Under the pieces are notes generated by a model. It worked only from the letters and a program-made list of their open reading frames with translations, did no database searches and was not told the origin of the DNA. A stretch of DNA of 64,000 nt from Yuukianura sp. NJ FZ-2021 (lineage: Eukaryota). Both the position numbers and the translations under genes were made by a program. The first letter of the stretch is position 1. The number at the start of each line of letters is the position of its first letter. Shown piece after piece: positions 162 to 55,831 of the stretch. The DNA is taken from the NCBI GenBank assembly GCA_046563655.1, contig CM102290.1:4278001-4342000 (forward strand), written 5' to 3'.

Positions 162-3100
162 CCCTTGAGTAAATACGGCAGGATTTCCTTGCTCAATCAT
201 TTCCTCCAATTCTTCATCGGTTGTAGTTCTTCCGGCTAAAAACATGACAGAAACATTTTCTTCAAAAATCGGAGTAACAAAACATTTTTTTAAATTCATC
301 TTTAGCTTCTAACTAGGAATACAAAAGCGAGGAAAACTTTTGACCTAGTTTCTTTTGTAAAATTTTGATTAAAAAAACTTCGAATAAAACAACCTAACAG
401 AAAATTGCGAGTGGTTTTTCTCTTTTTCCAAAAAATTAGTTGACTAACTTACTGATTTCGAGTTGACGCTGTATTCTTCCTTTACATCGCTCTCTGTAGT
501 CCGTTTGAGTTCTATTATATTCTGTCATCACTTCTACAAACTTCCTGGAGAGTGTTGAATGCTGAGTTTTTCTTATTCTGAGATCTGCCGATGATTTATT
601 CGTATGCTCATCTTGCTCAATATTTTGCTCAATTACTGCAAAACCAGCCAACCGTTTTTTTAAACCAGTTCAAACTTTTATTTCTCCAGAAAACCTGAAA
701 CCCTTCAAGCTTTCCTTGAAGTAGATTTGAAGTCTCCGAACTTTTTTTTCCATGTCTTTTGTATCTTACCTTTGAGTTTGGAACGAACTTGATTTGCTGT
801 CTTTTTTATTTGCGCCATCAAATCCTCCAGTTCCTGTTTCATTTCTAGCCAAAAGAAGAACAAAATTACAAGCGTCAGCCACTTTCTGGATTCGATGAAA
901 CGATCCTTCAGATCTCCTCAACACAAATTGGACTTTCAACGCTAACAGTGAAAGGTTTGCCAAATGTTTCACTTTCTTTTGAACTTTGTTAGAGTAGATC
1001 AGGTTAGGTTTTGTGAGCACAGATATGAAATTTCAACTCATGTCGTGTTGTATTGTAAGGTTTTAAAGGTAATTTCTTTAGACAAATTTTAATAAAAGGC
1101 GCAAAAATTTGGATGATGAAATGCAGTATTTCCTGCATAGAATAAATTCTCGCAGACACATATTCATAGACTGCCCCTCGTTTACTGCTAAAAGTGCTAC
1201 GATGTTTTTCAAATGACGTTGGGAAACATTCAAAGTTGTTTGGAAAACAGCAGAACCAAAAAACTACTCCTAAAAATGTTCCCAAAGTACTTCAACTATG
1301 ATGTTTAATTTCATTTCTCTTTGACTTTGATTGGTTGTGTACTTTGGACACATCAAAGGATGGGGTGGTTTGGAGATCTGCGAAGATTAAGCTAGGTTTA
1401 AAGGATTTGAGGGCCTTGAACGGACGTTTCCTTGATGTCACTACTTTTATTTTTACCATACATTCCTCATATCGCCAAAACAATAAACAATATTGACACA
1501 AGGAACGATGAAATTGGAAGAAGCGTCGAGTTGTCATGCATGAAAGGCCTTACGGCATATTCCAAGAAAGTGAAAGTCGAATGTGAAAAATTGCGCACGA
1601 AAAAAGTGAACGTGAAAAAGTCGGGACTTACTCTCGTCCGTAGTTGGGGCAGAGAGAATGGCACTATGCTTCTTCTTGACTTCTTCCACATTATTCTGTA
1701 TCTTGTCTATCATTCCCCGTATCTCCTCCACCTACACAAAGTTTCAACTTTCACTCCAAGTTTTTTAAACAAATTTTGTATAGAAGGCCATACTTTAAAA
1801 GTAGCATATTTGCAGAAGACGCGCACGAAAAAAGTGGAACTCAGAAGTTTATTAAACAAGAGTAGTGAAAGTACAGAAGATTTAGAAGTGCTTTCAAAAA
1901 TTCCAGTTTTTTTTGTAGTAAGCCTATGAGTGAATTTTTGCTTTTAAAAGTTATGAGTGAAAATTCAACAAGAAAATCACGCCCTTTCTTTTCAACATTT
2001 TTTGCTTTCATTTGAAGCTATGATTTTAGAAAAAAAAATACTTTGAAGGGAAGGAGAAAGTGAGTCGCGTGTTTTCAGCGGGACACTTTGGTCAATATTT
2101 TCTTTAAAAATTCATTTTTGTTCGGTTCAAATTTTGAAATTTCCTTACCTCGTCAAAGAACTCGTCCATGAACCCATCTCGACTTTCCACGGGGACGGCG
2201 ACGTCATCTGGACCATTCTCATCGTCGTCGCTCTGAGCCTATGTTAACCAAAATTCAGACAAGGGTAGAATCAAATTTCCAAGTTATGTAGCAAAGTAAC
2301 CGCCATCTTGGTAATCCTAGCTTTGTTTACAAGCGTTTACATTTTTTAGAACTACAAAACATCCATGAAACAAAACTGGACTGTTACGCTCAAACTATAA
2401 ATTCTACATTTTGAAACGAATATTTCATAAAAACAAATTAAAAATCCAGCATTCCAAGGTGACTTTCTCCATTAAGATGGACGTGTTATCCTAAATTTAA
2501 CAAAGGCAGCAAGAGAATACAAATGAAAACAATGGAAACATGCGCCGAATTTGAGAATCGTCTAACGTAATTTGAACTTCGCAAAATAAAATAAGGGGCC
2601 TTCCAAATTTCTGGTTCCCTGACTTTCGAAAATTCTTTCCACGGTCTGGGTTCAGAACTAGATTAACTTCTTTGGTAGACAAACTTAAAGTTTTCAAACT
2701 ACGCTCAAAATTTGGGACCATTTTTGTTTCCTGTGCCTGTTCCATCTAGTACCAAGTTCTGGAAGGGAGTCAATAACTTTTCCAGGAGAAAATTTCATTT
2801 CCTACTTCCTCTTCACCTTGTTTCTTGTGAATATTTTCAAAATTACGTTTCCATGATTGAATAATGACAATGAGGTTGAAACACACTAGTGCAGAGTGCT
2901 TGAATTGAATTGATTTGAACAAAATTGCTTTAGTTCAAACCTCGTTCTAATTCACCATTATTTTTCTCCAACTTTTTTGAATTTTTACCGTTACTTACAA
3001 TTTTGATTTGTTTAAAACAAACTCCGCTTTTGGTTACTGAACAACTTTTTGAGCAAATACAAACTAAATTGCACCGTAAACTTTTGGTTAAACAAAAGCC

Positions 3101-5404
3101 AGAAATGGGAATGATTTCCAATTCAATCAAGAACTTACGAGTAGTTATTCAGTGAAAAACTAAAAGTTTTTCTTGAATTAGTTAAGTATATTGCTAATTA
3201 ACGATAAAGTTACAGAGCTTCTCAATTTAATAATTTAAATGCTCCGCAATAAAATTGGATTACTAAACTATTCATGTAATTCTTATTCGCATTTAAAATT
3301 TGCTTCATTTCTAAAAATAAGCTAGTGACTTTCTAAAATCAATCGTCCACAATAAAATGTGACACTTTGTGAAACGCATGATTATTTAGTAAGATGAAAA
3401 TTCTTTATTTTCGCACATCCTAACTTAATCTTTCAAAATCAATCCTCTTACCAAAAGTATTTATGATTTTTATAGCAGTTCTACTAAATTTGTGAAGCCT
3501 ATTCTCGTAGTAAAGTTTTTTTTTGTCAGATGTACTGAATCATGTTGTATTCAACGCTTTATTGTCGACATTCCTTAAACCGCCCTACGTGCCATTGTTA
3601 ACCTCTGTTCAAATGAAATCTTATCAAAGGAAATCCTTGCTTAACAAGTGTTTTCCGACAGGTGAGTGAAAGCACAAATAGAAATACAAAGGACAACACA
3701 ATAATTTTTCTCAGGAATAACCTTAAGCATTCCCCAAGAAAAAAAAATCTTTTTGCGACACAAACATTAACTCAAAGGTAAAACGCTTGAACTGAATCAA
3801 ATGCAAATTGAAAGGAAAATGTATAGTGTACTTGCGTTAAGTACTTGCACCAATACAACCAATACAATTGGTGTAACTTGCGTTACACCAATAAAATTAT
3901 GAAACTTACAGTAATTAACAAAATTATTAGTGAATATTAACTATTGAAATTAAGGTGATTTTTTCTATTTTGCTCCTTCTCACACTCCCGAAAACATAAT
4001 GATTAATTATTAGAAAAAGTGCTTGTAAAACGTATTTATTTGTACAGATGATTCATTTTAGTACGTCTCAAAACATCTCCTGATCCCCTCGGATAATAGT
4101 TGCTGGAAACCCTGAATATTTTAATGATTTACCACAATTGGAAACTATCCGTTTTAATAAACTATGAACCAATTTCAGCCCCACACAAAACTGATATTCT
4201 GCAAATTTCCGTTGAAGGTCTTTCTGATCCATTGTTTTCTTATGGTTTAAGGTGCCTCTATGCCCAGGAGAACCTGAAACTTTATATGGACTTAAGAGTG
4301 TGGAGCATAAGTGATTGAATTGACGATGATAGATCGTAAATTGGTATTAATTTGTTTTGAATTAGCATCAACGAAGCTTGGCCTGCTACAAATTGGACCA
4401 AAACTAAAACACAGTTCATTTTCAAACTGTTTTTTTGTGTGCCTGAATTTCCTGACCGCAATGACTGGAAAGCATGACAATAGGTGTCTAGGCCACACTG
4501 GTTCCTGGACATGACATCATCGCCCATTAACTTCTCAGTTTCAAACATTAGTAGTTCCAGCCTAATCAACTGTGCGTAGAAAACCATAAGGGTATTGCCG
4601 TTTAAAATTCTCGATTATGGTTTGAAATGTCTTGATTTCATAACAAATCTGAACACAGTTTGGAAATAATTCGAACTGCAACATTCAAGTGAAACTAGAC
4701 GTTAATAACCGAAGCTTAAGATGACCTAACAAGGAAGTTTTTTATTATTAATGATTGTGATGGATTAAGGGTAGGGTGGGACAGGGGGACTGAAAGCGCC
4801 GGTCCTTTGACTGTTTTGGAACAAGGGAGCTGGAAACCAATTAACTGAATACATTGGTACTCGACGTTCACGTTTTCAGTGGGGGGATTGATCAATTAAA
4901 AATGGAAGTGTTAAAGTATTCATTAGGGACCTGAGTGCGTGGCCCTTTGTCTTTTTGGTTTCAAGGGCTTTGGGAAAATCGGTAACAGAGGACTGTACAA
5001 AAAAAAACTTTCCGATGTTGTTGTTTGACGAGGGTCTTAATTGATTTCTATAAGAAGGGGAAAGTGTGACTTGGAATCTAAGAAAAAACATGAATTCAGA
5101 GGCTGACTGACCTGATTTAGAAAAATTAGTGATGTTAAGTAAATCAATACCTCCTTCACATCTTACTTTAACTGGATCTAATGAAAGACTTCCACTTGAA
5201 CGAGTGAAAGTAGCCGAAATACTTTCGAAACAATTATTAGTTGAAAATGAAAGTGCTGTGAAAATTACGCCAATCTACAAATCCGAAATTCCAGAAAGTT
5301 TTCAGCACCCGGGTATTCTAAGGGCAACGATTGAATAGAATTGAAGAGCTAAAAAAAGGCGTGTAACTTACGGCCTTGAGGGCTGCGAGTCTGTCCTTGG
5401 TCAT
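162..5404 (-). CDS. Syx1A: Syntaxin-1 (plasma-membrane Qa-SNARE), 5' part; gene continues beyond the left edge
   Basis: GT-AG exons 5404-5372 ([11 protein letters not shown]), 2238-2149 (AQSDDDE...FMDEFFDE), 1731-1632 ([29 protein letters not shown]), 844-770 ([24 protein letters not shown]), 635-453 ([26 protein letters not shown]...RIQRQLEI) and 235-162 ([25 protein letters not shown]). Phases are compatible and the sequence is the syntaxin-1 N-peptide plus Habc domain. Confidence 0.97.
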
Positions 5405-6299
5405 GATGTGTGTTCTAGTGCTGATTTGAAGACTGAAGGGCTCCCGTGCCTGTCAGGGTGACTTTGTGGTTGCTCACTTTCACTGGCCTAGGGCGTGCCC
5501 CAGGCGTCACCGCCCCTGACCTGACAGGCCTGTCACTTCCCCAACTGACCTCCGTCCAAAGGGATTCGTCCTGCAGCAGCTCCTGCCTCTCGGCCTCTCC
5601 GTCCCTCTGCCGTTCAGTGGAGACAAGTCATGGTGACTTGACTAAGTTAACTGGGCCCTTAAGCCTTATTGTTTTGCAGCCTGAAGGACACTGAAGTCCC
5701 AGTCCCCACCCTGCTGCCCCAGTTGTCGTCTCCAGTTAGTTGACGAGAGGGCAGAGGGCCGCTGGGACGTTGAGGATAGGATCACCACACCAAAAATCAA
5801 TAGTCTTCATTGACGGCTGTTCCCAGTCCACCAAAGTCTCACTTTTGAGTCTTCCGTCTGCACTGGAAGTGCGAACCGAGAGAACGAAATGCAGAAAATG
5901 GTTTTGGGCCAAGTAGAGACGGAGGGAGGATTTGAAGTGCTGGAGAGACTTCCAGTAACAAGGAGGCACAAGGAGAAAATACCAAAATACCTTTCTCCAC
6001 AGACCCCCTCCACAAAATAGCACAGTCACAACTCCAAGAATCCGAATAATCCGCCCGCCCATTGTCCGACCACTTCCGGAACCACTCGGTTGCTGGACTC
6101 CCATTGCCAAATTAAGGCTGGTGTACCCTATATCCACCTAGTGGATACATCAATCGTCTACAACCGCATACCCCACCCACTACCATCTAACTCCACACAA
6201 GGAGTGGAAACAGTGGGCTGGAAAGTTCCATCCGTCCAAAATGTCTGGAAAGTCTGCTTCATATTGACGCTGGAGAAAGTAGCGTCATCTTGATGCTAG

Positions 6300-6800
6300 A
6301 AATTGGCCATGCGGCGCCATCTCACGCAGAGTACTATGATTATGTATCGAAATTCGCTTGAGTTCTTGGTCACTCGTCTTGCTCCGCCCATTTTAGCTCT
6401 CTCGATACTGCTGGACATTTGGAGTTAATTAATTTAACTTTTGTTATTGTAAAGACATACTTGCATTTAGATAATTTAAATAAATACTGCAAATCTTCCA
6501 GAAATTGATTGTGTTTTGTGAGTAAGCCATTTGGAAGATAAACTTGCAAAAACACCACATTTATTTAAAATAGTTGCCCATTTATGGCAGGGCGATGCTG
6601 AAACACAAAGTAACTTTTTGAGTTACTTTTAAGCCGTTGAAAAGTACGGAGAAGATTCTGGGCGCCACAGCGAAAGGTGTAAAAAGGCGAGAAAGGAAGG
6701 CATGCGAAAGGAGATTACCGAAAAAGTAGAAAGGGAAAATACGAAACCGCGATTACTAATCACTTCGTCATCAGAATCAGAACTGGACTGACCTCTTCGA
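6300..6800. promoter_or_regulatory. Putative bidirectional promoter between Syx1 (-) and Ran (+)
   Basis: Divergent gene orientation. Ran has a likely 5'UTR intron at 6852-6965 (GTAAGT...AACAG). An AT-rich gap separates two GC-richer leader regions. TSS positions are inferred, not seen. Confidence 0.5.
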
Positions 6801-7021
6801 AAGAGGCTCGTGTTCACTTTATCTACGTTCTCAATTCATCTGACTGTCTTGGTAAGTCTCTATTAGTAATCCAGTATCCATTTCATCTGATTGAAACACA
6901 AGTACCTTCGTTCAGTTTCGTAATCTCAAATTCCGTTAGTACAACGCCGATTTGCTGTTGAACAGATCCCGCAACTCATTCTCTTCGTGAGTCACTCAGG
7001 TTTTACACTAACAGTGGAACA

Positions 7022-7846
7022 ATGGCAGCACAACCGGACGACAATATTCCCACCTTCAAATTGGTTCTTGTTGGCGACGGAGGAACGGGGAAAACTACGT
7101 TTGTAAAGCGGCACTTGACCGGAGAGTTCGAGAAGAAGTACGTGGCGACCCTTGGAGTGGAAGTTCATCCACTTATTTTCAACACCACTCGCGGAGCCAT
7201 TCGATTTAACGTCTGGGATACTGCTGGACAGGAGAAATTTGGCGGTCTACGTGATGGATATTATATCCAGGTGAGGCATTTTTTTGAAGTTGAGAATTAC
7301 TTTACCTAATGAGGTTTTTTAATATTCCGTTTCTTTTTGTTGTTGCCCTACAGGGTCAGTGTGCGATCATCATGTTTGATGTCACTAGCCGGGTAACATA
7401 CAAAAATGTACCCAACTGGCATCGTGATTTGGTGCGTGTATGTGAGGGCATACCCATAGTTCTATGTGGCAACAAGGTTGATATCAAGGACCGGAAGGTT
7501 AAAGCTAAGAGCATCGTGTTCCACCGGAAGAAGAATCTCCAGTACTACGACATCTCCGCCAAGAGTAACTATAACTTTGAGAAACCATTCCTGTGGTTGG
7601 CTCGGAAGTTGATCGGTGATCCTAACTTGGATTTGGTCGCTATGCCTGCCTTGGCACCACCAGAAGTCGTCATGGATCCCGAATGGAAAGAGAAGATTCA
7701 AAACGATCTTAAGGTAATGAGCCTGCACTATTACTTATTTTTTTCTAAAGTCACACTCAATCTCCAGAATAAGCAACCACATTTTATTTTGCTTGCAGGT
7801 TGCTGAAGCTATCCCGCTTCCGGATGATGTCGACGACGACCTTTGA
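7022..7846 (+). CDS. Ran: GTP-binding nuclear protein Ran
   Basis: Exons 7022-7270, 7354-7713 and 7799-7846. Motifs [19 protein letters not shown] and SAK, with the acidic tail LPDDVDDDL*. Confidence 0.99.
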
Positions 7847-8833: not shown

Positions 8834-10781
8834 ATGTTCGCAAGTCTCTCACGAAGACTTGTCATTTCCTTTCCTAAAAATGGAGTAATTCCAATCCGAT
8901 TCTATGCTGCTCCTGCTGGAGAAAAGAAGGTTTACAGCCGAGACAAGCCTCATTGTAATGTTGGCACGATTGGACATGTTGACCATGGGAAGACAACACT
9001 AACTGCGGCTATAACCAAAGGTGACATGACTCATGTTAATTTCAGGCCTATGAGGACTAGAATCATGCTCTAATTTTGTTTTCTCTTTCAGTACTGGCCG
9101 AGAAACAACTGGCAAGTGTTAAGAGATACGACGAGATTGACAATGCTCCTGAAGAAAAACAACGTGGAATTACAATCAATGTGGCTCACGTAGAATACGC
9201 AACAGATAATCGTCATTATTCCCATACAGACTGCCCTGGACATGCCGATTACATCAAGGTTTGTTAGAAATATGTAGTTGTACAGGTTTCCTAATTTGGA
9301 GGCATCGTTAAACTAGAAACTTTGGTTGTTTATAGAATATGATTACGGGAACCGCCCAAATGGATGGAGCAATTATGGTCGTTGCCGCAACCGATGGTGT
9401 AATGCCACAGACAAGAGAACATCTCCTCTTGTCCAAACAAATTGGTGTTCAGCATATTGTAGTTTACATAAACAAGGTACAACTTACACCCATAACGTGG
9501 TTACATATCAATATGAAAAACTTTGTCGATGTCTCTCAATTCGTAGGTTGATGCAGCTGATGCGGAAATGGTGGATCTTGTCGAAATGGAAATTCGTGAA
9601 CTATTGACTGAAATGGGTTTTGATGGCGACCACGTTCCGATAATCAAAGGTTCTGCTCTTTGTGCATTGGAAGGAAAAGATCCGGAAATTGGTATTTATT
9701 TTCAAGAATTGTTCTATTGGGTCGCTGAGTTTGATAATAATTGGCGCCTGTGCTGTTTGTTTTATGTGTAAGGTTCCAAGTCCATTATGGAATTGCTTAA
9801 GCAAATAGATGCTTCTATTCCAACTCCCATAAGGGACCTGGACAAGCCATTCCTGATGCCCGTTGAGAACGTGTACACCATTGCAGGTAGACCATGTTTT
9901 GCGCATGTACTTTTCAACATTAAAGTCTGAACTTATCGAATGGAAAATTGTGGCCGAACATGTACTTTATACTCTAAATGACACTCTGTTTATAGGACGT
10001 GGAACTGTCGTGACTGGTCGCTTGGAGCGAGGAATATTAAAGAAAGGAAATGATTGCGAAATCCTGGGGTTTGGCAAAGTGGTGAAAACGACAGTGACTG
10101 GCGTGGAAATGTTTCACAAGATTCTTGAGGAGGCTCAAGCAGGTGACCAACTTGGAGCTCTTGTTCGTGGTACCAAGCGAGACGATGTCCGGCGCGGTAT
10201 GGTTTTAGCTAAACCTGGTACCGTGAAACAACATGACAACGTTGAAGCTCAAGTAAATTAACCTTACTAAATTAGAGAAATTAGACTCGACTTCTCTATG
10301 AAGATTGTAACTACTAATCAGGAGCGTTCTTTTGTTTAATCAAATCTAGGTTTACGTACTGACCAAAGAGGAAGGCGGTAAATCCAAGCCCTTCACTGCT
10401 TACACTCAGCTTCAAGTATTTTCTAAGACCTGGGACTGTGCCTCTCAAGTGTTGATTCCAGGAAAGGACATGGTCATGCCTGGAGAGGATTCCTTGTAAG
10501 ACCACATAATGTACTTGTATATCAATTTTCAATTTGTGCGAATTATCTAACTCATCCCTGTATCTGAACATAGATTGCACCTAAAACTATACAAACCAGT
10601 TGTCATCGAAAAGGGACAACGATTTACATTGAGAGACGGAATCACGACGCTTGGCACAGGCGTATTCACTGCTTTTAAGCCCAATCTAACGGATGCCGAG
10701 CGACAGTTGCTCAGTGAGGGCAGAAAAGGAATTGAGAAAAGAGCGAAGAAAGAAGCTGCAGCGGCTTCAGCCAAGTCTTAG
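8834..10781 (+). CDS. TUFM: Mitochondrial elongation factor Tu
   Basis: Nine exons (approx. 8834-9020, 9092-9258, 9336-9476, 9547-9691, 9773-9886, 9996-10252, 10350-10495, ~10573-10781 read here as eight coding blocks). Arg-rich presequence MFASLSRR, then [34 protein letters not shown] and RFTLRDG. Confidence 0.97.
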
Positions 10782-28300: not shown

Positions 28301-29341
28301 TCTGCTCATCCGAGTTTGGGATGGCAAGTGTATGACAAGATCTTTCAATTGGGCATGCATTTACAGAAGGAGCACCCGAAGGTAATACAAAAATACATTT
28401 CTCATGCAGCTCATGTTGTTGAATACTTTTAATTGATACAAGAACGTTTCTGTTGCAGATGAGGTACAATGCTAACAGGGCCTTGGGAGCACTCATTCTT
28501 TGGACTCCGGTACAAATTCTGGAGAATCCAAAGTTGGAACACCATATTATGACTATTGTTCATAGTCTTTCAGACCAACTGGGTACAGGACAAGATTTCA
28601 AGGTAACATCACGTACAATTCATAGTAAAAGCGTGAAAATGTTTTGTTGCAGTCCAGACGGTTTCAGATACTGATTGTAATGTAGGCTCGATGGAATGCC
28701 TCTCATGCTGTAGGGAATTGCTTGAGAAAAAAGGAAGTCTGGGAAAAATTCAACTCGGTCTTACTGGTAAATATTGAATTTCTGCTACTGTGAAGTAGTG
28801 GGTTATCTATTTGCTAATTTTCTGTTTTAATCTAGGAGACAATCCTACCTGCTTATATTCGTGCCATAAAAGCCGGTGACAACTTTAAAGAGCAAATCTA
28901 CTGTCTTAAGTCCTTGCAGTCCTTGCCGAATCATGGATCCTATGGAACATACTATAAAGAATTATTCGAAGTAGTTTTACAGGCCTTTAATTCAGGTTCA
29001 GAGTCAAAAGTATTTGTGCCTTATGGAATTTTCGAAAACTACAAAGAAGAAGTGAGTTTAAAATTTAGAACCGAATTTGGAACAGTGATGCACATGATAA
29101 AGGCTTAACTTCTCAACAGGTAGCGCGCACAATCTTACACTTTGCTGGAATGAAGGAGTCTATCAAGGTTCGGGACTTGCAACTTTGGCGAGCTTTGGAA
29201 ACTGTATTTGAAGCAAATCAGGAGATACTTTCTGAAGTTCATTTGCTTATATCGGAGAGCAACAAAGCCGAAAACGATACGGAGTCTATTAAGGCCGGAC
29301 TGGAAACTCTTGAAAAAACGTTCAAAGACATTCAAATGTGA
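25397..29341 (+). CDS. HEATR6: HEAT-repeat protein, HEATR6-like
   Basis: Multi-exon helical protein. C-terminal motifs AVRAKAARGMAMF, WAASNLVDAL, KMRYNANRALGAL, DFKARWNASHAVGNCL and DNFKEQIYCLKSL resemble the HEATR6 KVRWNAC/NFKVR-type repeats. Start inferred from ATG GAG AAG AG|GT spliced in frame to 25503. Confidence 0.65.
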
Positions 29342-43100: not shown

Positions 43101-46000
43101 TTAGCAAGTTGAAAATTGGTACTAATTTTTGATTCCATGACTTTGTAGAGCTTCTGCATCTTCTAATACCAGGACGCAGCAACCTGCACAAGCTCAATCT
43201 GGCGGGAAACATTTGAAGCTGGCGAGAATGACCTCCCTGCAGGTTGATGACCTTCCACCCAGAAAAGGCCAAAAAGTCATTCGGCTCCAGTCACTCCCCG
43301 TCACTGATGACATTCATCAGTGTCCGAATCCTCAGGCGGAAGCAGTTCGGGAAAGAGCGGACACGCTTGACAGTCCACTTACGCAGCGGCCGAACTTTTT
43401 CAAAAGACTTCTGAGTGTAAATGCTAGGTACGCAAACGAAACGGAATAAATTAAAAAAAAAATACTTTCACGTTAATTTTGAAACTTCTTTTTACAGGAG
43501 AACTTTGTCTTCGGATTCAACTGTTACCGAACTGGACAAACTGCCGAGACTGCTGTCCACACTTTCAACCAGTGAATCCGAGTACCCCGAGGAAGAAGAA
43601 AGTAAATCACATAATGCCACAATAAATCACAATAAAGGCCAAGGCTCAAATATTTTTCTACTTTTTTTTTCATTTTCTTTTCAGATCCTGAATACGCCTT
43701 GTTAGCTCGCGAGATGAGTTCAGATGAGCGCGAGTACGGAACCATTCCGGTCAAAGTTCACTTGTCCTATATCTCAGCGTGTGGTTGGTGCCTGAGCGCC
43801 TTCTACTTACTATTTGCAATTGGTTACGAAGTGATTCGGGTTTGTACAAACTTTTGGCTGAAAGAGTGGAGTGACGAGATCAGCGTCAGCTCAGACGACG
43901 ACTACGACAGTGTCATGGAACACTATTTTAACATCTACGTCATTTTGAGCGTCGTCACTGTTCTCGTGTCGCTGAGTTCCAATTTAATTGGAAAACAAGC
44001 CGGAGCCAATTCTCGGGAAGCTCTACATAGTAAAATGCTCAAACGAATCGTCCGTTGTCCCATGAAATTTTTCGACACGACTCCGATTGGCCGAATACTC
44101 AATCGGTTCTCTTCGGATGTCACTGTCGTCGACAGGGTAAAACCAAATTGCCCAAATTGGAATTTTTGTCAAGTTTATTAAACTTTTTCGTTCTGATTCC
44201 ACAGAAGCTTTGTATCTCCATGCAAAGGTTTTTGCAATTCGTGTTCCTATGCATGTCGGCCATTGTTGTCAACGCTCTGGTCAATCCTTGGTTTCTCATT
44301 GTTGCAATTCCAATCGTGGGAATCTACTACTACATTCAAAGATTCTACAGATTCTCATCTCGGTAAACAATTACAACGCTAAATTTAAAAAAAAAACTAT
44401 CCTGAAACGCTTAAAACCTGTAAAACTCTAAAGGCCTTTTGTCTTGTTTATGTTGTAGAGAGTTGCAGCGAATTGAAGCAATTAGTCGTGGCCCCATTTA
44501 TACTCACTTCCATGAAACATTGGAAGGACTGTCAATTATCCGGGCATTTCAAGTCGAAAAACGATTTACTGAAGACATGTTCTCAAAAATTGATACCAAC
44601 AACACCGCAGCCATATTTATTAACGTTGGAAATCGATGGCTGAGCATTTCTCTAGTACGCCTGACTTTTTTTTGTCAAAATTTCGATTTAAATTCAAAGC
44701 GTCGTCACTCTTATTTTTAACGACATTTCAGGACTACTTGGGAAGTTTAATTGTGTACTTGGCCACTTTGGTGTCAATGATCTCATCTTACCTTTACCCT
44801 GAACATGTGACCCCTTCCATGGTCGGATTGGCCATCAACTACACACTTCTCGTTCCAGTGTATCTCAATTGGGTGGTTAAATTTCTAGCAGAAGTTGAGA
44901 TGTTCATGACCTCGGTTGACCGAATTGACCGCTATTCGGCAGTGACAGTTGAAGACTATGGAGACGACTGCCCAAATTCTGGCGTTCCGAAGGACTGGCC
45001 TTCTTCTGGACATGTTCAATTTGTAAGTTCATTTCAAATCTTTTGTGTATTAAAAAAACTGTTTTTTGAATAGACTTAAAAAAGTTTCACAAACGAATTA
45101 TTCTTGTCTGACATTTTGAATTTCCTGTAATTAGGACAACGTCTCTGTTCAGTACGCCATAGATCGACCGAGAATCATTCATAACCTTAACCTCGACGTC
45201 AGTGGAAAACAGAAAGTAGGAATTTGTGGACGTTCCGGTTCAGGAAAGTCGTCACTGCTCATGTCTCTGTTTCGAATTGCCGATGTCTGTGAGGGCAAGA
45301 TCTTGGTAGATGGAGTCGATATTTCTAAAATCCCGCTTCTCAAACTACGTTCGAGTCTGTCCATCATTCCACAAGAAAATATCCTCTTCAGTGGCACAGT
45401 TCGGTTTAATTTGGATCCAAATGGAAATGTTTCGGATGCCGAAATTTGGAAAGCCCTGGAACTGTCCCAAATGAAAGATTTTGTCCAAGACATGCCAGGA
45501 CAACTAGGTTCGCAATAGCGTTTTAAATTTTTGAGAAAAATTTGCAGAACTTTTTTTTGAAAAATGTTTTATTGCAATTTAGATGCTGAAATCAAAGATG
45601 GTGGATCCAGTTTCAGTGCTGGACAGAAGCAACTCCTTGGACTAGCCAGAGCCATACTTCATAATTCCAAGGTTGTCATTCTGGACGAAGCTACAAGCTC
45701 TGTTGACCTGGCCACTGAAAAGATCATACTGGGGGTGGTCAAGGAAGCATTCAAAGATTCTACAGTTTTGACTATAGCGGTAAATTATTTCCATTTTTAT
45801 CTAAGTAGGCACTGTACTAATGTTGGATTTCATTGTATGTGTAGCATCGGCTGGACACGATTGTTGACGGAGATCGAGTAATTGTTCTGGATGCTGGCGT
45901 CGTTGTCGAAGATGGAAATCCGACTGAACTTCAAAGAAATCCAAACAGTATTTTTAAATCTATGATGCAACTTGCCAATGAACAAGGACATCTTCTCTAA
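37176..46000 (+). CDS. Sur: Sulfonylurea receptor (ABCC8/ABCC9-type ABC protein)
   Basis: About 20 exons. TMD0 FC...DC...HNAIWILT...EFSEAI resembles the SUR1 N-terminus, followed by L0 SRLTFYWFTSLLRRGYKHPLEEEDLG. NBD1: GSVGSGKSS, LSGGQKQR, IILDD. NBD2: GRSGSGKSS, FSAGQKQL, ILDEATSS, TIAHRL. Stop TAA at 45998-46000. Confidence 0.93.
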
Positions 46001-50214: not shown

Positions 50215-53200
50215 ATGAATATGGAGGAGAGTTCTGAAATTAAAAGAAAGCAGAATCGACTCACTATTAAGCAAGGGAAGACTAAAGAAAAAGAAGACAA
50301 GGCTGACTCGAAGAAAACTCCAAAGAAGCTTGGGAAAGTCGACGAGAAAGGACAAGGCGACGAGGTTGAGGCCGATGGACATGGACATGATGAAGGGCCT
50401 CCTCTGAAAAAACCGAAACGGAAGCTACGAAAACCTACAGCCGAAGAGGACATAATTGATGGCTTTGCCATCCTCGCTTTCAAGAACTATGACGAACTCA
50501 CGGTAGGCTCAACTTTTTAGTCATTTTACTTAATTACTCTGTTCAATGTAACAGGAAGTTGTTCCAGTTGTAATCCTGGTTTCATTCTTACATTTCCGCA
50601 AAGCAAGGAGGTCTTCCACTGTAAATGAATAAGAGGAGCCACAGTTAGTTTAGATTGTCAAAATGGACAATCTTAAAACAATGCTTAGTAAATCGTTAGG
50701 CCGAGATTCATTACGACTGACTCAGAAGATGTCTTAACACTTTATTAACTTTGTGGAGCATGATGTGTGGCCCAACGAGGCCAAAGGTTACGTTTATCTC
50801 TTGTTTGTGATCATGAGTTTCTAAACATCGGAGATGAATCGTTGCATAAACTTATGGAAAGTGTTGAACCACTACTTATTTACTCACGACGAAACAGACA
50901 TTGCGTAGTACCGAGTTTCACGAGCTACAAAGTTCGTTTTTTTCTAAATAAGAGGCAGAAGCCTCTTACACAAAAAAAAACGAGACAAGTGCTTTTTATA
51001 TTTTTTCATAATGCTGAAAAGGTATAAGACAGTTTACATGCACTTCCCAAAATTTAAACATTATACGACTTCTGTTTGAAAACGAGTTCTGTAATCACAC
51101 TGAATTAAATTCAGTAAATAACATGATGTCATGTATTTGTACTTTTGCCAAAACCAATAATTCCCAACTTAACAACTGTTTTTTTTTGCCATTTGATAAG
51201 TGCGGAAAAATGCAGCGAAGTGAATCAAATATCTTCCTGTCATTTGAGAACTCTCATTTCCCAAATTAAAAAGGCGGTTTAGGAAAATGAGTAAATTCTC
51301 ATGATTACGTAATGATGGCATGTTCTTGTTAATCTTTTAGTTTCAGATGAGTACAGTTTCTAACATCCGCCAACTACAACTTACAAGTTCCTTGCAATTT
51401 TTTTTATTTATGCCAATGTATTTCTCTCCACAAAAGTCAGAGAGGCTGGAATGGGCCTAACCTACTCATCCAATAATACTAATGTGATTGTAATCTTCCT
51501 GTTTTCTATTGTTTTCAGAGAGCAATCAAATTAGGAGAAAATTCGGATTCACGGTTATGTGTTCAGTTGTTGAGGCGAGCGGAAGACGGTTCCGTCTGTA
51601 AAAGTGTGAAGGAAAAGAAAACAAGTCCTAAGGCTAAAAATTCTCCTTCACCAAAACTCAAATCACCGAAACCCAATTCGACAAGTCCAAACAAAAAGAA
51701 GGTAACTTACTTCTTCTTTTTCCGCTTCATTTTCTAGTTTCTTTATACAGTAGAAGTAACATAAGAGGATTTGAGAGGGCTTTTGACTTGTCAGAGATCT
51801 CACTTTTCCGCTCTGTTTTTGGAAAATGGTAAAAAGGGAGAAAGCGAGGAGAGAGTTTTCGAAATTCCACAGTCGGTGTTGCCAAATGGGCTTGCTCGGT
51901 GAAAGTTTTAACAGAATGCAACAAAAGAGCATGAGGAAGGTCTGGAGAAAGTTTTTTGTTGGTGAAAACTTTTTTTTTAACTGAATGTGAACATTAGGGT
52001 TGAGCCAAAGGAGGGCTAATTACTCGTTTTATGTAAGTGATGAGGTTGGATGGAGAGTCCGTGTTTGAAGAATGGCGTATTAAATGTAGGAGGAAGTTCG
52101 TGAAAAGAAAGTTGGAGAAAGGATAATAGATAATTTTAGTAAGGAAGGGAGAGTTCCTGGAATGGTGTAGCAGCATGTTGTTAAGAAGAGGGTAGGCGTC
52201 TAGTGAAAGTGTTCTATATTTTTCCTGACTGTTACTGTATAAGGTTTTGGGTTGTTGGTTAGGCTAGAAGGTCTTATAGTACTGTGGTAGGATCGAAATA
52301 AAAGCTGGAAGAGAAAATCAGTGGTCATCTCACGTCTAATTTGAGATGGGAAGTCGACTTTCTTCCGCCGTGTGAAACAGACGTTAACCTTTATTGAGGA
52401 GACGGAAAATGTATGTTGAGAACGTGAGCCGGGCAACAAATATCATTTTATGCTGACGGAAACTACTGTCTTTTTCCTCTGCCTCTTTCTAAAGTATTAT
52501 TTCCCTCTTGTGCAGAAGAAAAAGTAGTGACTAGTACTTGTACTTACCTCCTACTTGTAGTCACTACGGCGTCTAGCACTTTACTATAGTCTGTTCTCTA
52601 CGGACTTCTCCGGCCGAAGTCTCTCTGTTCTGAATCTAACCTCAACATGCCACTTGAAGCAAAGGACTTTCTCCTTGTGCTTTTACTACAACGCTTCTTC
52701 CTCCCTTGTAGTCGCTCTACTTCCAACTAAACAAACCCCCTTTGCTCCCACATCTTTTCTCTTTCCCTAGTGGATGCGGAGAAAAACAATAAATTTCCCC
52801 CTTTGTTCCCTATGTTATTAAAACATAATCGTCGTCCTTTCTCCTCTCTTTCTCTCTTTTTTCGATCACTGAAACTCTCGAGTTGCTGTTCTGTTGGCAA
52901 TGGTACTGGATAATATGTATGAAAATGATATACCAAATAATGTAATAATATAAGAGTAATATACTAAATAAGGCTCTTGAAATATATTCTTCTTGAGCGG
53001 TTGTATGTTATGGGGGAATATGTTTATGGGTTATAACTGTAAATATCTAATATCGTATTTTGTCGGCACTTCTGTTGGCATAAGTACGATCCTCATCAAT
53101 AACATTGGTTTTTATGAACAGATTTGAAACAGTGCGTATTACTTCTCTCACTCTTCCACTAGGTTATATCTATATGTACTATACAAAAATAACACTTCAC

Positions 53201-55831
53201 TAGAACTTTTGATTTCTATCGAGAAAAATTGACATTTCACTTCCTTTGCAACTGGTACATGCTAGACCGTGTCACAACGACTAACATGTCTCTGGTTGAC
53301 TTTCTTTCGTTTCCTGCCTCCTTTCTCCAGTCTGCAATGCAATCTGGACCCACTTTTCGTTGATATTTATGGCGCATTGAAACACGAGGACGGGAAATAT
53401 GAAATCAAGTTCATGTGAGGCTGGATCTTTCTTATTTGTTGGAACGGAGATTTCAGATGTCCCGTTATGTCCCATTTTTTTATTTGGCTAAACTGCAATG
53501 ACTTCTTTTGGTTACTAATTTGGGGTAGACGCAAGCAATGAGGAAGTGGATGTGACGATGTGAGGTTTCTTAAAAATTGTTGATGTTTAGACGTAAATTG
53601 CGATGCTCAGCAGTTTATGGAACGGGGGAAACAGTTAAGGCGGTGTGAAGTGATGGACGGGGTCACGGGGCCACTCAATGGGCAGTGGGGTGACTAATTC
53701 ATTGTTTATAAGAATCAGTTTTCTTAACGGGATTTTATCACCCTGGTCCAAGACGATTGTTTACTGCGCGTGGAGAATAACTGCTTTCTGCAGAAGTTAA
53801 TGTTTACAACCATTGTTTCTAGTTTTGGATTTATTTGACATTGTTCTCCGTTTGTATATACTTAAGTGGTCTAGCTTTTTGGTTTTTAGTTTAGTTGAAA
53901 GGAAGGAGTGACTGAGTAAAGTTGTCATTTGACAATCCTTGTTAAATTCCAATTAAAGTTTAATTACTTTGTTTGTTGGAATGTTTAAGGAGACGCCTGA
54001 GAACATGGCCAACAAGCTGCCGGGCAGCGGAAGCGGAACTGAGAAAAAGAAGAGAAAGTCGGAGAGTGCTGTTGGGAATTCAAAGAAAAAACAGCGTCCG
54101 AGCAATGGGGCCACGACGACTAAGGAGAACTTGCACACGGTAAGGTTTGCATTCTGTTTTAATCTTCTTAAGCTACTCTGTCCTGGTTAGGTTACGAGAC
54201 TAAGAAAATCCGGCGCAGAATAACAAAATGCTGGCAGAAAGAGAAAGTAGGTTTGTTTGAGCTGGGCTGTATGCTGCCAGTCAAGTTTTGGAGGGATGGG
54301 TTGATATTGATTCCTCCTTTATAATTTAGAAGCCCGGGTTTTTATGATAAATCTGTTTCGTTCTCATTTGGAGAAAGGTGCAGAGTTGGGAGGTAAAGTT
54401 CCTGCTGGAGACCATTTCCTGTTTTATTGAGCTTTTATTTCAGTTTCCTGTCTAAGGTGACTGCGTAGGAACCTATGGTTCAATTCGTCTAGTCTCAGTA
54501 GTAGTGTGTTGCTGGAGTTCAGTTTTGGCGGTTCGTTTTGTTCGGGAGGGGAGTTTCGTCGTTTTTATGTCCTTGTTTCCTGGAAGCTGGGTTATAGTGT
54601 GCCTCCGGAGGCGTGGATATGATCTGGGTCTTTCACTCCACACTTTCACCTGCTCCTTTTCTCCTAGTATGTATTCCTAGTACTTGGTTTCTTTGTGGGC
54701 TTTTGCTTGTGTACTAACGAAATAAGAATTCAGAGTTCTCTTGTTGGGCTTCTGTTGGGGAAAAGAGAGAGCCGTGCCTGTCAATAAACTTGTTTATGAA
54801 CTTTCTCCGCCATGCCGGTCCATATTTAGCTCAACTTTATACTATCTACGCCTACGCTTACCAAAACTAAACAAGACCAAAGGCTTATGAACAATATATC
54901 AGCGTAAATCTCGGAAACACAGTTTGGTGTTATATGTAACACTGGTTTTGGAAGGTTGGTTTTATAGCGAGCCTGCGTAAAATTCAAAGCAAAGCAACAA
55001 AGTTGAAAGCGTTTCGTATAATTTATGAAATTGTTGTAATACTTTCTAGGCTACGATTGAATTTCGGATTTTTTTAAACGTAAAGGTGGAGTTCCCTCGT
55101 TCCAAATTTTTTAAGTTTTAGAAGAAAGTCAAAGGTTAGGTTAGGTAATTTTTTGTTTTGTAGAAAACGTTTGGAAATGGCTTAAAACGTCCTGAAAAGT
55201 GATTTGGAAGGCAAATTTTTTTTTTCGCAAAACAAAGTTTTTTTTTTGGATCCGAAAAATTTTGGGTGCAGTTTGAAATTTGAAGTAATCCAGTGATGTT
55301 TCCATTTTAGTACATAGACTAGTTCTCTGCTTCAGTTGAGTTTAACAAGTCTACAGCACGGGAGGTTATAGCGTCTCCGTTCCTTGGATTCCTAAAACCC
55401 GAAATGCCTGAACTTCACCCTGCTGCTCCACGTGGCTGCTACCCGTTTCGGGGCTAATGTTTGTATGAACCCAGGCGTTTATGTAGATTTTGTGGTGAAT
55501 AGTGGAGGGGGAGAGCCCAGGGATCAATTAAATCTCACCGTTCCCATGTTCTTCATGTGTCTTTCACACTTTCTCGCTTCTTTTACCAAAGCCACTTCAA
55601 AGTTATCCAATCCACAAAAAGAGCATGGATTTCCCTATCAATTCTTCAGGAAATTAAATTATGACGAGAATGTTTGGCGAGGAGCGAGGACTTGTTGTCC
55701 AAAAATTGTTTTTGTTAACATATTCAACTCGGTTTTGGAATTAATTTTTAGTTTCGTTAAGCTTTCTCTTTTAAATATTTATTTGATCGTTTCAGGTCCC
55801 ATGTGAAACTGTGACTGAAGGCAGCAAACTG
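50215..55831 (+). CDS. tay: AUTS2/fibrosin-like (tay bridge) family protein, 5' exons; gene continues beyond the right edge
   Basis: Exon 50215-50502 has a Lys-rich region and EEDIIDGFAILAF, the AUTS2/FBRSL1/tay N-terminal signature. Phase-0 exons follow at 51519-51701, 53990-54139 and 55796-55831, separated by large introns. Confidence 0.8.

What the first reader, a model, noticed from the sequence alone, without database searches (positions are those of the whole stretch)
162..55831. Syx1-Ran-EF-Tu-Mondo-AUTS2 cluster mirrors the human 7q11 / 12q24 / 16p11.2 paralogous regions
Seen: syntaxin-1, Ran, mt EF-Tu, Mondo and an AUTS2/tay gene lie within 56 kb. Established (human gene locations, from memory): STX1A and MLXIPL are in the Williams-Beuren region 7q11.23 with AUTS2 at 7q11.22; STX2, RAN, MLXIP and FBRSL1 are on 12q24.3; STX1B, STX4, TUFM and FBRS are on 16p11.2. 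Inference: this invertebrate may retain, in very compact form, the pre-duplication ancestral bilaterian block, possibly a genomic regulatory block centred on the large-intron AUTS2 gene.
Basis: partly seen in the sequence, partly recalled or inferred. Interest (0 to 1): 0.75.

Follow-up and report, generated by a model that had tools for sequence, protein, structure and literature searches.

The report
Ancient gene neighbourhood in a springtail
A 56-kb stretch of what is probably a springtail genome holds several unrelated genes side by side whose human counterparts also lie close together near the Williams-syndrome and 16p11.2 regions. Two of these pairings were already known to be ancient, and the rest is suggestive but unproven.

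Summary
The window encodes syntaxin-1 (5' two-thirds, cut by the window start), Ran, mitochondrial EF-Tu, Mondo and the first two coding exons of an AUTS2-family gene. The best named protein hits are springtails (Collembola).

- Syntaxin-1/Ran is a published ultra-conserved microsyntenic pair, reported from cnidarians to humans.
- EF-Tu/AIP is a catalogued ancient cluster (Trichoplax, Capitella, sea urchin).
- All six families fall in the same ancestral linkage group (ALG 3 of Simakov 2013).
- Mondo and AUTS2 also lie on one 124-kb contig in another springtail, Allacma fusca.

Against it:
- In what I could read of two microsynteny catalogues, nothing joins Mondo or AUTS2 to Stx-Ran.
- The catalogued neighbours of AUTS2 are ZMAT5 and MYO18.
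- Mondo lies on the Ran side of syntaxin here but on the BUD23 side in human 7q11.23.
- A random-order null gives only p about 0.005-0.04 for the human Mondo and AUTS2 proximities together.
- The regulatory-block idea could not be tested.

Verdict: two known ancient pairs sit inside a same-linkage-group neighbourhood. That is a new instance of a known kind of feature, of moderate interest.

The parts
111..5404 (-). Syntaxin-1 gene, 5' two-thirds. The start codon is in the exon at 5387-5404. Further exons lie within ORFs 2107-2238, 1537-1731, about 790-870, 439-669 and 111-308. The SNARE motif and membrane anchor lie beyond the window start.
   Evidence: Pfam Syntaxin E 3.8e-17 and 6e-4. PDB best hit Syntaxin-1A, E 9.8e-29. 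Exons read from translations.
5405..7021 (.). Spacer of 1,617 bp between the start codons of syntaxin-1 and Ran, which are transcribed away from each other. It is a candidate shared or bidirectional promoter region.
   Evidence: Start codons located. GC is 0.466 against 0.385 for the window. Promoter function is inferred, not shown.
7022..7803 (+). Ran GTPase. Exon 1 starts at the ATG at 7022 in ORF 6962-7306, and exon 2 lies in ORF 7294-7803. The exon for the C-terminal tail was not located.
   Evidence: Pfam Ras E 4e-20 and 9e-21. PDB Ran E 3e-72 against Rab7 2e-11. Translation. A motif search for an acidic tail found nothing.
8834..10781 (+). Mitochondrial elongation factor Tu, complete coding region in several exons.
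   Evidence: Pfam GTP_EFTU and GTP_EFTU_D2. The four best PDB hits are mitochondrial EF-Tu entries, best E 2.3e-36. Start and stop read.
11753..13155 (+). AIP (AH-receptor-interacting protein) homologue with an FKBP-type domain and TPR repeats.
   Evidence: Pfam PPIase_AIP E 8.6e-10 (39.5 bits, cut-off 27) and TPR_1 E 3.7e-9. All 6 PDB hits are AIP or AIPL1, best 2.5e-13. Start and stop read.
13806..21744 (-). Mondo (MLX-interacting protein / ChREBP homologue). The same reading frame stays open upstream to 22572, so an N-terminal extension is possible.
   Evidence: tblastn is collinear with Orchesella dallaii residues 4-977 of 986 and with Bacillus rossius MLX-interacting protein. Named homologues. 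Exon translations.
25450..29338 (+). Run of long plus-strand ORFs that looks like a gene for a helical protein. No family could be assigned, so this gene is tentative.
   Evidence: ORF translations. No Pfam match. The Atlas gave no reliable hit (best 0.85). The representative search gave 5 weak hits; Pfam on 4 of them gave unrelated domains in the two long proteins and none in the two short ones.
31364..31744 (-). Exon resembling a polyprenyl-diphosphate synthase. Reading it as a PDSS2-type subunit is my suggestion only, and the gene is tentative.
   Evidence: PDB octaprenyl diphosphate synthase at E 0.0026. Atlas heptaprenyl diphosphate synthase clusters score 0.88-0.90. No Pfam hit.
33378..34482 (+). 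Cysteine-rich ORFs, possibly a small secreted protein. Tentative.
   Evidence: Translations. No Pfam hit.
37176..45881 (+). ABCC (MRP-type) full ABC transporter with an N-terminal extra membrane domain. The exact human orthologue was not determined.
   Evidence: Pfam ABC_membrane and ABC_tran on 7 ORFs. The 60 PDB hits listed (of 61) are all ABCC-family chains, best ABCC2 at 5.5e-22. N-terminal ORFs.
50215..50502 (+). AUTS2-family gene, coding exon 1, with the conserved N-terminal motif.
   Evidence: Two hits among 99 candidates, the best being Allacma fusca 'Fibrosin' at 8e-9, which carries Pfam Auts2 at 1.5e-16. tblastn E 4.5e-8. BLASTP to spider AUTS2-like protein E 4e-9.
51513..51700 (+). 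AUTS2-family gene, coding exon 2. Its 3' boundary is approximate.
   Evidence: tblastn to Allacma residues 72-99, collinear with exon 1, E 0.025. Translation.
51701..64000 (+). Presumed long intron or introns of the AUTS2-family gene. The rest of the gene, including the Auts2 domain, is not in the window. A possible small exon lies at about 53984-54142.
   Evidence: GC skew is positive throughout (+0.10 to +0.25) from 50 kb to the window end, with negative AT skew in 6 of the 7 bins. No further match to Allacma AUTS2. ORF survey.

Best explanation
This is a gene-dense stretch of a chromosome, probably from a springtail, that descends from one ancestral animal linkage group (ALG 3 in the numbering of Simakov 2013). 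Two short gene pairings that are already catalogued as ancient lie directly next to each other. One is syntaxin-1 and Ran, transcribed away from each other with start codons 1.6 kb apart. The other is mitochondrial EF-Tu and AIP, in tandem. They are followed by Mondo, about three poorly conserved genes, an ABCC transporter and the 5' end of the single invertebrate AUTS2 homologue.

The resemblance to human 7q11.23, 12q24.3 and 16p11.2 has two sources. First, all these families belonged to one ancestral chromosome that the two vertebrate genome duplications copied into those human regions. Second, a few short units survived intact: Stx-Ran, EF-Tu-AIP, and possibly a looser Mondo/AUTS2 neighbourhood.

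Shown here: the gene identities, their order and spacing, the literature record of the two pairs, and the shared linkage group.

Inferred: Stx-Ran is held together by shared or interleaved promoter-proximal regulation. The closeness of Mondo and AUTS2 to these pairs reflects limited mixing within the chromosome plus genome compaction, not a constraint on the whole block.
For: - Gene identities.
- Stx1-Ran pair: PMC6177115, passages of sections 6 and 8, calls it an ultra-conserved duplet present in Nematostella, Lottia, Saccoglossus and amphioxus, with human RAN-STX2 and zebrafish ran-stx3a.
- PMC7530604 Table S2 has a row 'STX2=RAN'.
- Simakov 2013 suppl. file 4 has syntaxin next to a Ras-family gene in clusters 850/2566 (Nematostella), 2038/2695 (Lottia), 3337/1043 (amphioxus), 3790 (Tribolium), 230 (Trichoplax) and 2565 (human chr12).
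- EF-Tu-AIP: clusters 1025 (Trichoplax), 1026/2997 (sea urchin) and 2996 (Capitella, within 4.6 kb).
- Same linkage group for STX, RAN, TUFM, AIP, MLXIP(L), AUTS2, ATP2A, ZMAT5 and WBSCR22.
- Conserved pairs are enriched for 5'-5' orientation and short spacers (Irimia 2012, passage seen). Here the spacer is 1,617 bp and richer in GC.
- Catalogued AUTS2 block 4191 holds ZMAT5 and MYO18, not STX, RAN or MLXIP.
- Mondo lies on the Ran side of syntaxin here. In human it lies beyond VPS37D-DNAJC30-BUD23, on the side of syntaxin that is away from Ran in the listed order of Lottia cluster 2038 (...Ran-Stx-methyltransferase-DnaJ) and amphioxus cluster 3337 (DnaJ-methyltransferase-Stx-Ran).
Against: - The random-order null gives a joint p of only 0.005-0.04 for the human Mondo and AUTS2 proximities. 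Pure mixing is therefore not comfortable either.
- Mondo and AUTS2 are also neighbours in Allacma fusca: accessions CAG7720770-73 and CAG7720776-79, both listed with a 123,818-bp contig. The exon identity to the window is only 75%.
- Trichoplax holds the EF-Tu-AIP and Stx-Ran clusters on one scaffold 496 kb apart.
- ATP2A sits with Stx-Ran in amphioxus and Trichoplax, and beside TUFM in human 16p11.2. This hints at a larger ancestral neighbourhood.
- The catalogues come from fragmented 2012-era assemblies or a file that was cut when stored, so absence from them is weak evidence.
- Shared regulation of Syx1 and Ran was not tested here.
Confidence: 0.6

Rival explanations
1. The whole string Syx1-Ran-EF-Tu-(AIP)-Mondo-...-AUTS2 is a retained, compact copy of one ancestral bilaterian block. 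That block was quadruplicated in vertebrates to give 7q11.2, 12q24.3, 16p11.2 and a fourth region.
For: - All families fall in ALG 3.
- Human MLXIPL is 3 genes from STX1A.
- FBRS, BCL7C, STX1B and TUFM lie within 2.87 Mb of 16p11.2.
- The order AUTS2...Mondo...Stx matches human 7q11 (AUTS2 position recalled).
- Mondo-AUTS2 proximity is kept in Allacma.
- The Trichoplax EF-Tu-AIP and Stx-Ran clusters are 0.5 Mb apart on one scaffold.
- ATP2A links the Stx-Ran and TUFM neighbourhoods.
- Joint null p 0.005-0.04.
Against: - No block joining these genes was found in what I could read of Simakov 2013 suppl. file 4 or Robert 2022 suppl. file 4.
- Human cluster 3336 stops at DNAJC30-WBSCR22-STX1A and does not extend to MLXIPL.
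- The catalogued partners of AUTS2 are ZMAT5 and MYO18.
- Mondo lies on the opposite side of syntaxin compared with human.
- The genes between Mondo and AUTS2 are not conserved families. One may belong to ALG 15, if the PDSS2 reading is right.
- Individually, the human distances of TUFM and AUTS2 are not significant.
Confidence: 0.25
2. The cluster is a genomic regulatory block. Enhancers of the developmental gene AUTS2 lie within or beyond the neighbouring housekeeping genes, and this locks them together.
For: - AUTS2 here has a very long intron (at least 12.3 kb, against 3 kb or less in the other genes) and is a developmental regulator (PMC7732068 passages).
- Strand skew suggests one long transcript from 50 kb onward.
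- Regulatory blocks are an accepted cause of microsynteny (Irimia 2012 passage).
Against: - No conserved non-coding element was or could be looked for, because no related genomic DNA is available here.
- In PMC7530604 the only entry found is STX2=RAN in the table of co-regulated pairs. AUTS2 and MLXIP(L) appear only in the ohnolog table.
- The genes between Mondo and AUTS2 differ between the window (about 4) and Allacma (at most 2 protein records).
- The known AUTS2 block involves ZMAT5 and MYO18.
Confidence: 0.05
3. Apart from the two known pairs, the proximity is pure chance. Any window of an ALG-3-derived chromosome would hold genes whose human orthologues fall in the same few human regions.
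For: - Same-ALG membership is the expectation under conserved macrosynteny.
- Null probabilities for single human proximities are unremarkable: Mondo 0.035-0.10, AUTS2 0.15-0.39, TUFM 0.35-0.81.
- The five genes were chosen after the fact from about ten.
Against: - Joint Mondo and AUTS2 p is 0.005-0.04.
- Mondo-AUTS2 linkage is kept between two divergent springtails.
- Trichoplax and ATP2A link the two pairs.
Confidence: 0.1

Closest known systems
Ran-Syntaxin1 conserved ancestral microsyntenic pair (Irimia et al. 2012, as cited by PMC6177115; 'STX2=RAN' in PMC7530604 Table S2; Simakov 2013 clusters 230, 850, 2038, 2565, 3337, 3790)
   Same: The same two families are directly adjacent, as in cnidarians, molluscs, hemichordates, amphioxus, Tribolium and human chr12. 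Here they are divergently transcribed with start codons 1.6 kb apart.
   Different: This is a new taxon, probably a springtail. The usual companions BUD23 (methyltransferase) and DNAJC30 are not in the window and would lie beyond its start, if they are present. On the Ran side the next genes are EF-Tu and AIP, which no catalogued cluster that I saw shows.
EF-Tu - AIP (- SUPT4) ancient microsyntenic cluster (Simakov 2013 suppl. file 4, clusters 1025, 1026/2997, 2996)
   Same: Mitochondrial-type EF-Tu and AIP are direct neighbours (971 bp apart here), as in Trichoplax, sea urchin and Capitella.
   Different: No SUPT4 or carbohydrate-kinase gene was detected beside them in the window. No ecdysozoan is listed for that cluster in the rows seen, so this would add one.
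AUTS2-ZMAT5-MYO18 bilaterian block (block 4191, Robert et al. 2022, PMC8851819 suppl. file 4)
   Same: It involves the single invertebrate AUTS2 homologue.
   Different: Neither ZMAT5 nor MYO18 was detected upstream of AUTS2 in the window. They may lie downstream, beyond the window end. The upstream neighbours here are an ABCC transporter and Mondo.
Human 7q11.2 / 12q24.3 / 16p11.2 ohnolog regions (products of the two vertebrate genome duplications; ALG 3 of Simakov 2013)
   Same: The families are shared: STX1A/STX2/STX1B, RAN, TUFM, MLXIPL/MLXIP and AUTS2/FBRSL1/FBRS. AUTS2, FBRS and FBRSL1 are described as an ohnolog trio with one invertebrate gene (PMC7732068 passages).
   Different: The human regions span 0.1 to several Mb and hold many further genes (BCL7, VPS37, FZD9/10, BUD23, DNAJC30) that were not seen in the window. 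The side of syntaxin on which Mondo lies differs.
Genomic regulatory blocks
   Same: A developmental gene with a long intron sits next to compact housekeeping genes.
   Different: No conserved non-coding elements or regulatory data are available, so the defining features are untested.

Membership tests
Syntaxin-1 (Stx1/2/3 clade of Qa-SNAREs) | N-terminal Habc (Syntaxin) domain most similar to syntaxin-1 | tested here: met
   Pfam Syntaxin E 3.8e-17. Of 13 PDB hits, 10 are named Syntaxin-1A, best 9.8e-29; the others include squid s-syntaxin and a Monosiga syntaxin 1.
Syntaxin-1 (Stx1/2/3 clade of Qa-SNAREs) | SNARE motif and C-terminal membrane anchor | not testable with these tools
   This part of the gene lies beyond the window start, and no whole genome is held.
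Ran GTPase | Ras-fold GTPase far closer to Ran than to other small GTPases | tested here: met
   PDB Ran E 3e-72 against Rab7 2e-11. Pfam Ras.
Ran GTPase | Acidic C-terminal tail | tested here: inconclusive
   A motif search of 7700-8800 found no candidate exon. The motif used was recalled from memory.
Mitochondrial EF-Tu (TUFM) | EF-Tu domains, closest to mitochondrial and not bacterial or cytosolic factors | tested here: met
   Pfam GTP_EFTU and GTP_EFTU_D2. The four best PDB hits are human and bovine mitochondrial EF-Tu entries at 2.3e-36 to 6.6e-36, with the others at 6e-32 or weaker. That the N-terminal extension before the G domain is a targeting sequence is inference (read).
Mondo (MLXIP / MLXIPL / ChREBP) | C-terminal bHLH-leucine zipper plus the following dimerisation region | tested here: met
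   The exon matches 194 of 273 candidates at E <= 1e-5, and the listed homologues carry Pfam HLH. It is collinear with Orchesella residues 719-977 of 986. Pfam HLH on the exon alone scores just below its cut-off (20.3 against 20.7 bits).
Mondo (MLXIP / MLXIPL / ChREBP) | N-terminal Mondo conserved regions | tested here: met
   tblastn to Orchesella dallaii residues 4-361 and Bacillus rossius residues 29-297 across five exons, with 61-87% identity in the short conserved exons. That these stretches correspond to the named conserved regions is recalled.
AUTS2 family (AUTS2 / FBRS / FBRSL1 / Tay) | Auts2 domain (Pfam PF15336) | not testable with these tools
   It is not in the window. The gene runs off the window end, and no genome is held.
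AUTS2 family (AUTS2 / FBRS / FBRSL1 / Tay) | Conserved N-terminal region, collinear with proteins that carry the Auts2 domain | tested here: met
   Exons 1 and 2 match residues 2-99 of the Allacma protein, which has Auts2 at 1.5e-16. The motif is shared with a spider AUTS2-like protein whose precomputed Pfam is PF15336. PMC7732068 reports aligned conserved regions in the N-terminus of AUTS2 relatives.
Conserved ancestral microsyntenic pair (Irimia 2012 criterion: at most 4 intervening genes in at least 4 lineages) | Syx1-Ran linked in at least 4 lineages | tested here: met
   From the literature: Nematostella, Lottia, amphioxus, Tribolium, Trichoplax and human. In this window they are adjacent.
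Conserved ancestral microsyntenic pair (Irimia 2012 criterion: at most 4 intervening genes in at least 4 lineages) | EF-Tu-AIP linked in at least 4 lineages | tested here: met
   Trichoplax, sea urchin and Capitella, plus this window, make 4.
Conserved ancestral microsyntenic pair (Irimia 2012 criterion: at most 4 intervening genes in at least 4 lineages) | Mondo-Syx1 linked in at least 4 lineages | tested here: not met
   Only 2 lineages are known: human, with 3 intervening genes, and this window, also with 3. Other lineages could not be examined.
Conserved ancestral microsyntenic pair (Irimia 2012 criterion: at most 4 intervening genes in at least 4 lineages) | AUTS2-Mondo linked in at least 4 lineages | tested here: not met
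   Only springtails: this window (about 4 intervening genes) and Allacma (at most 2 protein records between). In human 7q11, at least NSUN5, TRIM50, FKBP6, FZD9, BAZ1B, BCL7B and TBL2 precede MLXIPL in the intervals listed, and AUTS2 is not in those intervals.
Genomic regulatory block | Conserved non-coding elements of a developmental target gene spread over bystander genes | not testable with these tools
   No related genomic DNA could be fetched. No RNA run was listed.

The most novel reading that the evidence does not exclude
The springtail string Syx1-Ran-EF-Tu-AIP-Mondo-...-AUTS2 is a compact relic of one ancestral animal gene neighbourhood. On this reading the human Williams-Beuren (7q11.23), distal and proximal 16p11.2, and terminal 12q24.3 regions are duplicated, expanded remnants of that single block. 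These are three hotspots of neurodevelopmental copy-number disorders. The previously separate catalogued clusters (Stx-Ran-BUD23-DNAJC30-VPS37, ATP2A, EF-Tu-AIP-SUPT4, AUTS2-ZMAT5-MYO18) would be fragments of it.
Probability: 0.3. Interest if true: 0.55.

Novelty: new member of a known kind. Interest (0 to 1): 0.3.

Why it matters
Conserved microsynteny between unrelated genes is one of the few handles on ancient constraints on genome architecture. This window adds a hexapod example of two catalogued ancient pairs and shows them directly abutting. It also raises the testable possibility that several separately catalogued ancient clusters, together with Mondo and AUTS2, were once one neighbourhood.

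If that were confirmed in slowly evolving genomes, it would tie the gene content of three human disease-associated regions (7q11.23, 16p11.2, 12q24.3) to a single pre-vertebrate block. If not, the window is an ordinary case of two known pairs on a chromosome with conserved macrosynteny.

Tried and rejected
I sent stop-free ORFs instead.
- No whole genome is held for the window. The flanks (BUD23, DNAJC30, ZMAT5, MYO18, the Auts2 domain) and paralogues could therefore not be looked for.
- Earlier findings of the scan: nothing near the window, nothing in relatives, nothing by sequence or by words. One note reports a divergent Ran copy 4.52 Mb away.
- The last homology search, with the Allacma Auts2 region, gave only 6 of 3900 candidates. 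None came from species in the Mondo list, so a species-by-species comparison of contig lengths was not possible.
- Irimia 2012 supplements could not be read, and its main text names none of these genes.
- Robert 2022 suppl. file 4 was cut when stored. It contains no RAN or STX1/STX2 gene rows, and its MLX block 4539 concerns other genes.
- Paper searches for a description of the extended block or of the paralogy found nothing relevant.
- Unidentified genes at 25-35 kb: no Pfam match; the Atlas and the representative search were uninformative for the 25-29 kb gene; there is only weak polyprenyl-synthase likeness for 31364-31744.
- Tandem Repeats Finder found no repeat array in the open frame upstream of Mondo.

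Full report
**What is in the window.** The window is eukaryotic and gene-dense, with 38.5% G+C. I scanned all 137 stop-to-stop ORFs of 78 residues or more against Pfam. I then scanned 102 of the 158 shorter ORFs listed for 1-12 kb and 150 of the 157 ORFs of 42-77 residues in the gaps. With PDB sequence searches and local tblastn, this gives the following map.

- **Syntaxin-1**, minus strand. The start codon lies in a small exon at 5387-5404. Further exons lie in ORFs 2107-2238 and 1537-1731, at about 790-870, at 439-669 and at 111-308. Exon 439-669 gives 13 PDB hits, 10 of them named Syntaxin-1A, best E 9.8e-29. The SNARE motif and membrane anchor lie outside the window.
- **Ran**, plus strand, ATG at 7022. 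PDB Ran scores E 3e-72 against 2e-11 for Rab7. By similarity, the copy here is the canonical one.
- **Mitochondrial EF-Tu**, 8834-10781. The four best PDB hits are mitochondrial EF-Tu entries.
- **AIP**, 11753-13155. It matches Pfam PPIase_AIP and TPR, and all 6 PDB hits are AIP or AIPL1.
- **Mondo**, minus strand, 13806-21744. It is collinear with nearly the whole length of the Orchesella dallaii and Bacillus rossius proteins.
- **Three tentative genes without a family**, at 25.4-29.3 kb (+), around 31.4-31.7 kb (-; weak polyprenyl-synthase likeness) and 33.4-34.5 kb (+).
- **An ABCC transporter**, 37176-45881.
- **The 5' end of an AUTS2-family gene**, from 50215.

**The AUTS2 call.** No Auts2 Pfam domain is in the window. 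Exon 1 found 2 proteins among 99 candidates. The best is Allacma fusca 'Fibrosin', which carries the Auts2 domain at 1.5e-16, above Pfam's cut-off. Exons 1 and 2 are collinear with its residues 2-73 and 72-99 (E 4.5e-8 and 0.025). The same motif opens a spider protein named AUTS2-like that has the Auts2 domain. PMC7732068 (passages read) describes conserved N-terminal regions in all AUTS2 relatives, and a single invertebrate gene ancestral to the AUTS2/FBRS/FBRSL1 ohnolog trio. Strand skew from 50 kb to the window end fits one long plus-strand transcript. The gene is therefore AUTS2-family, but only its first two coding exons are here.

**Organism.** The Mondo bHLH-zipper exon is 75% identical to Allacma fusca and 72-73% to two Orchesella species, all springtails. 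The best insect reaches 65%. The window is most likely from a springtail whose proteins are not in the searched collection. No whole genome is held.

**What was already known.** Three published records bear on the cluster.

*Ran-Syntaxin-1.*
- PMC6177115 (sections 6, 8 and 9 read as passages) calls it an ultra-conserved duplet first listed by Irimia et al. 2012. It is present in Nematostella, Lottia, Saccoglossus and amphioxus, with RAN-STX2 in human and ran-stx3a in zebrafish.
- PMC7530604 Table S2 lists 'STX2=RAN'.
- Simakov 2013 suppl. file 4 shows syntaxin next to a Ras-family gene in Nematostella, Lottia, amphioxus, Tribolium, Trichoplax and human chr12. A methyltransferase (WBSCR22/BUD23) and a DnaJ gene often accompany them. 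The human chr7 cluster reads DnaJ-methyltransferase-STX1A.
- In Nematostella and Amphimedon a VPS37-type gene joins DnaJ and the methyltransferase.

*EF-Tu-AIP.* The same file lists an EF-Tu-AIP-SUPT4 cluster in Trichoplax and sea urchin, and kinase-AIP-EF-Tu within 4.6 kb in Capitella.

*AUTS2.* Robert 2022 (PMC8851819 suppl. file 4) places it in bilaterian block 4191 with ZMAT5 and MYO18 in Saccoglossus, Capitella, Strigamia, Lottia and Ptychodera (23 rows).

**Macrosynteny.** In Simakov 2013 suppl. file 7, the families STX2/3/1B/1A, RAN, TUFM, AIP/AIPL1, MLXIPL/MLXIP, AUTS2/FBS1, ATP2A1-3, ZMAT5 and WBSCR22 are all assigned to linkage group 3 in nearly all species and ancestral nodes with a call. 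PDSS2 falls in group 15. Shared human paralogon membership is therefore expected for any window of a chromosome that descends from this group. On its own it is not evidence of a tight block.

**Evidence for a larger ancestral neighbourhood.**
- Human MLXIPL is three genes from STX1A (MLXIPL-VPS37D-DNAJC30-BUD23-STX1A; PMC6393686 Table 2). In the window, Mondo is also three genes from syntaxin-1.
- TUFM, ATP2A1, FBRS, BCL7C, STX1B and STX4 all lie in one 2.87-Mb 16p11.2 interval (PMC10137620 Table 1).
- ATP2A is part of the Stx-Ran cluster in amphioxus and Trichoplax.
- In Trichoplax the EF-Tu-AIP cluster ends at 2,364,605 and the Stx-Ran cluster begins at 2,860,716 on the same scaffold.
- In Allacma fusca the Mondo isoforms (CAG7720770-73, partial) and the AUTS2 isoforms (CAG7720776-79) have consecutive accession numbers and the same listed contig length, 123,818 bp. 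I infer from this that at most two protein records lie between them.

**Evidence against one constrained block.**
- No row that I could read joins Mondo, AUTS2 or EF-Tu to Stx-Ran. Human cluster 3336 stops at STX1A-WBSCR22-DNAJC30.
- In the listed order of Lottia cluster 2038 and amphioxus cluster 3337, Ran and the methyltransferase flank syntaxin on opposite sides. Human MLXIPL lies beyond the methyltransferase side, whereas springtail Mondo lies on the Ran side. At least one rearrangement therefore separates the two arrangements.
- The genes between Mondo and AUTS2 belong to no recognisable family. Their number differs between the two springtails.
- My simulation of random gene order within four paralogous segments used assumed linkage-group sizes of 400-1200 families and 38% retention. 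It gives p 0.035-0.10 for Mondo within 3 genes of an STX copy, 0.15-0.39 for an AUTS2-family gene within 11 genes, 0.35-0.81 for TUFM and 0.005-0.04 for Mondo and AUTS2 together. These values are rough and make no correction for choosing the genes after the fact.

**Mechanism.**
- *Syx1-Ran.* The divergent orientation, the 1,617-bp spacer between start codons and its raised G+C (0.466 against 0.385) fit the class of 5'-5' conserved pairs. Irimia 2012 links that class to shared promoter-proximal regulation (passage). This is inference and was not tested here.
- *EF-Tu-AIP.* No mechanism is known to me.
- *Regulatory block centred on AUTS2.* The only observation in its favour is the long intron. 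No conserved non-coding sequence could be examined, and no RNA holder was listed.

**Verdict.** Their direct juxtaposition with Mondo and AUTS2 appears in no row or passage that I could read, and in no paper returned by my searches. It could reflect a larger ancestral neighbourhood, which I put at about 0.25-0.3. The available evidence fits equally well with conserved macrosynteny plus limited local mixing in a compact genome.

Noticed in passing
window 11753-13155 (+), next to 8834-10781 (+): An AIP homologue lies 971 bp downstream of mitochondrial EF-Tu. This pair is a catalogued ancient microsyntenic cluster (Trichoplax, sea urchin, Capitella).
   Followed up: yes
window 21745-22572 (-): The Mondo reading frame stays open for about 275 codons upstream of the point where the Orchesella protein begins to align. 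That is unlikely by chance in 38% G+C DNA. The stretch encodes a His/Pro/Cys/Ser-rich region with loosely repeated short motifs, so it may be a lineage-specific N-terminal extension. Tandem Repeats Finder found no DNA-level array.
   Followed up: partly
window 25450-29338 (+): A series of long plus-strand ORFs looks like a gene for a helical protein. There is no Pfam family and no usable relative (5 weak hits among 1.84 billion representatives).
   Followed up: partly
window 31364-31744 (-): An exon has weak likeness to long-chain polyprenyl diphosphate synthases (PDB E 0.0026; Atlas 0.88-0.90). If it is a PDSS2-type gene, it would be a member of a different ancestral linkage group (15) sitting inside the ALG-3 cluster.
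   Followed up: partly
window 33378-34482 (+): Several cysteine-rich ORFs may encode a small secreted protein. No family was found.
   Followed up: no
window 37176-45881 (+): A full-length ABCC/MRP-type transporter with an extra N-terminal membrane domain lies 4.3 kb upstream of AUTS2. Its human orthologue and linkage group were not determined.
   Followed up: partly
window 50000-64000: There is a steady excess of G over C on the plus strand (GC skew +0.10 to +0.25), with T over A in 6 of the 7 bins. It starts at the AUTS2 start and runs to the window end, as expected for one long transcribed intron-rich gene.
   Followed up: partly
Allacma fusca proteins CAG7720770-73 (P0003 cluster): The Allacma Mondo records are marked partial, keep the C-terminal half and have the lowest accession numbers of the group. 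Mondo may therefore point towards AUTS2 there, the opposite of its orientation in the window. This could not be checked without the contig.
   Followed up: no
PMC8851819 supplementary file 4: Rows with Capitella accessions (CAPTE_...) are labelled 'Capsaspora owczarzaki' in the species column. This looks like a labelling slip in the published table.
   Followed up: no
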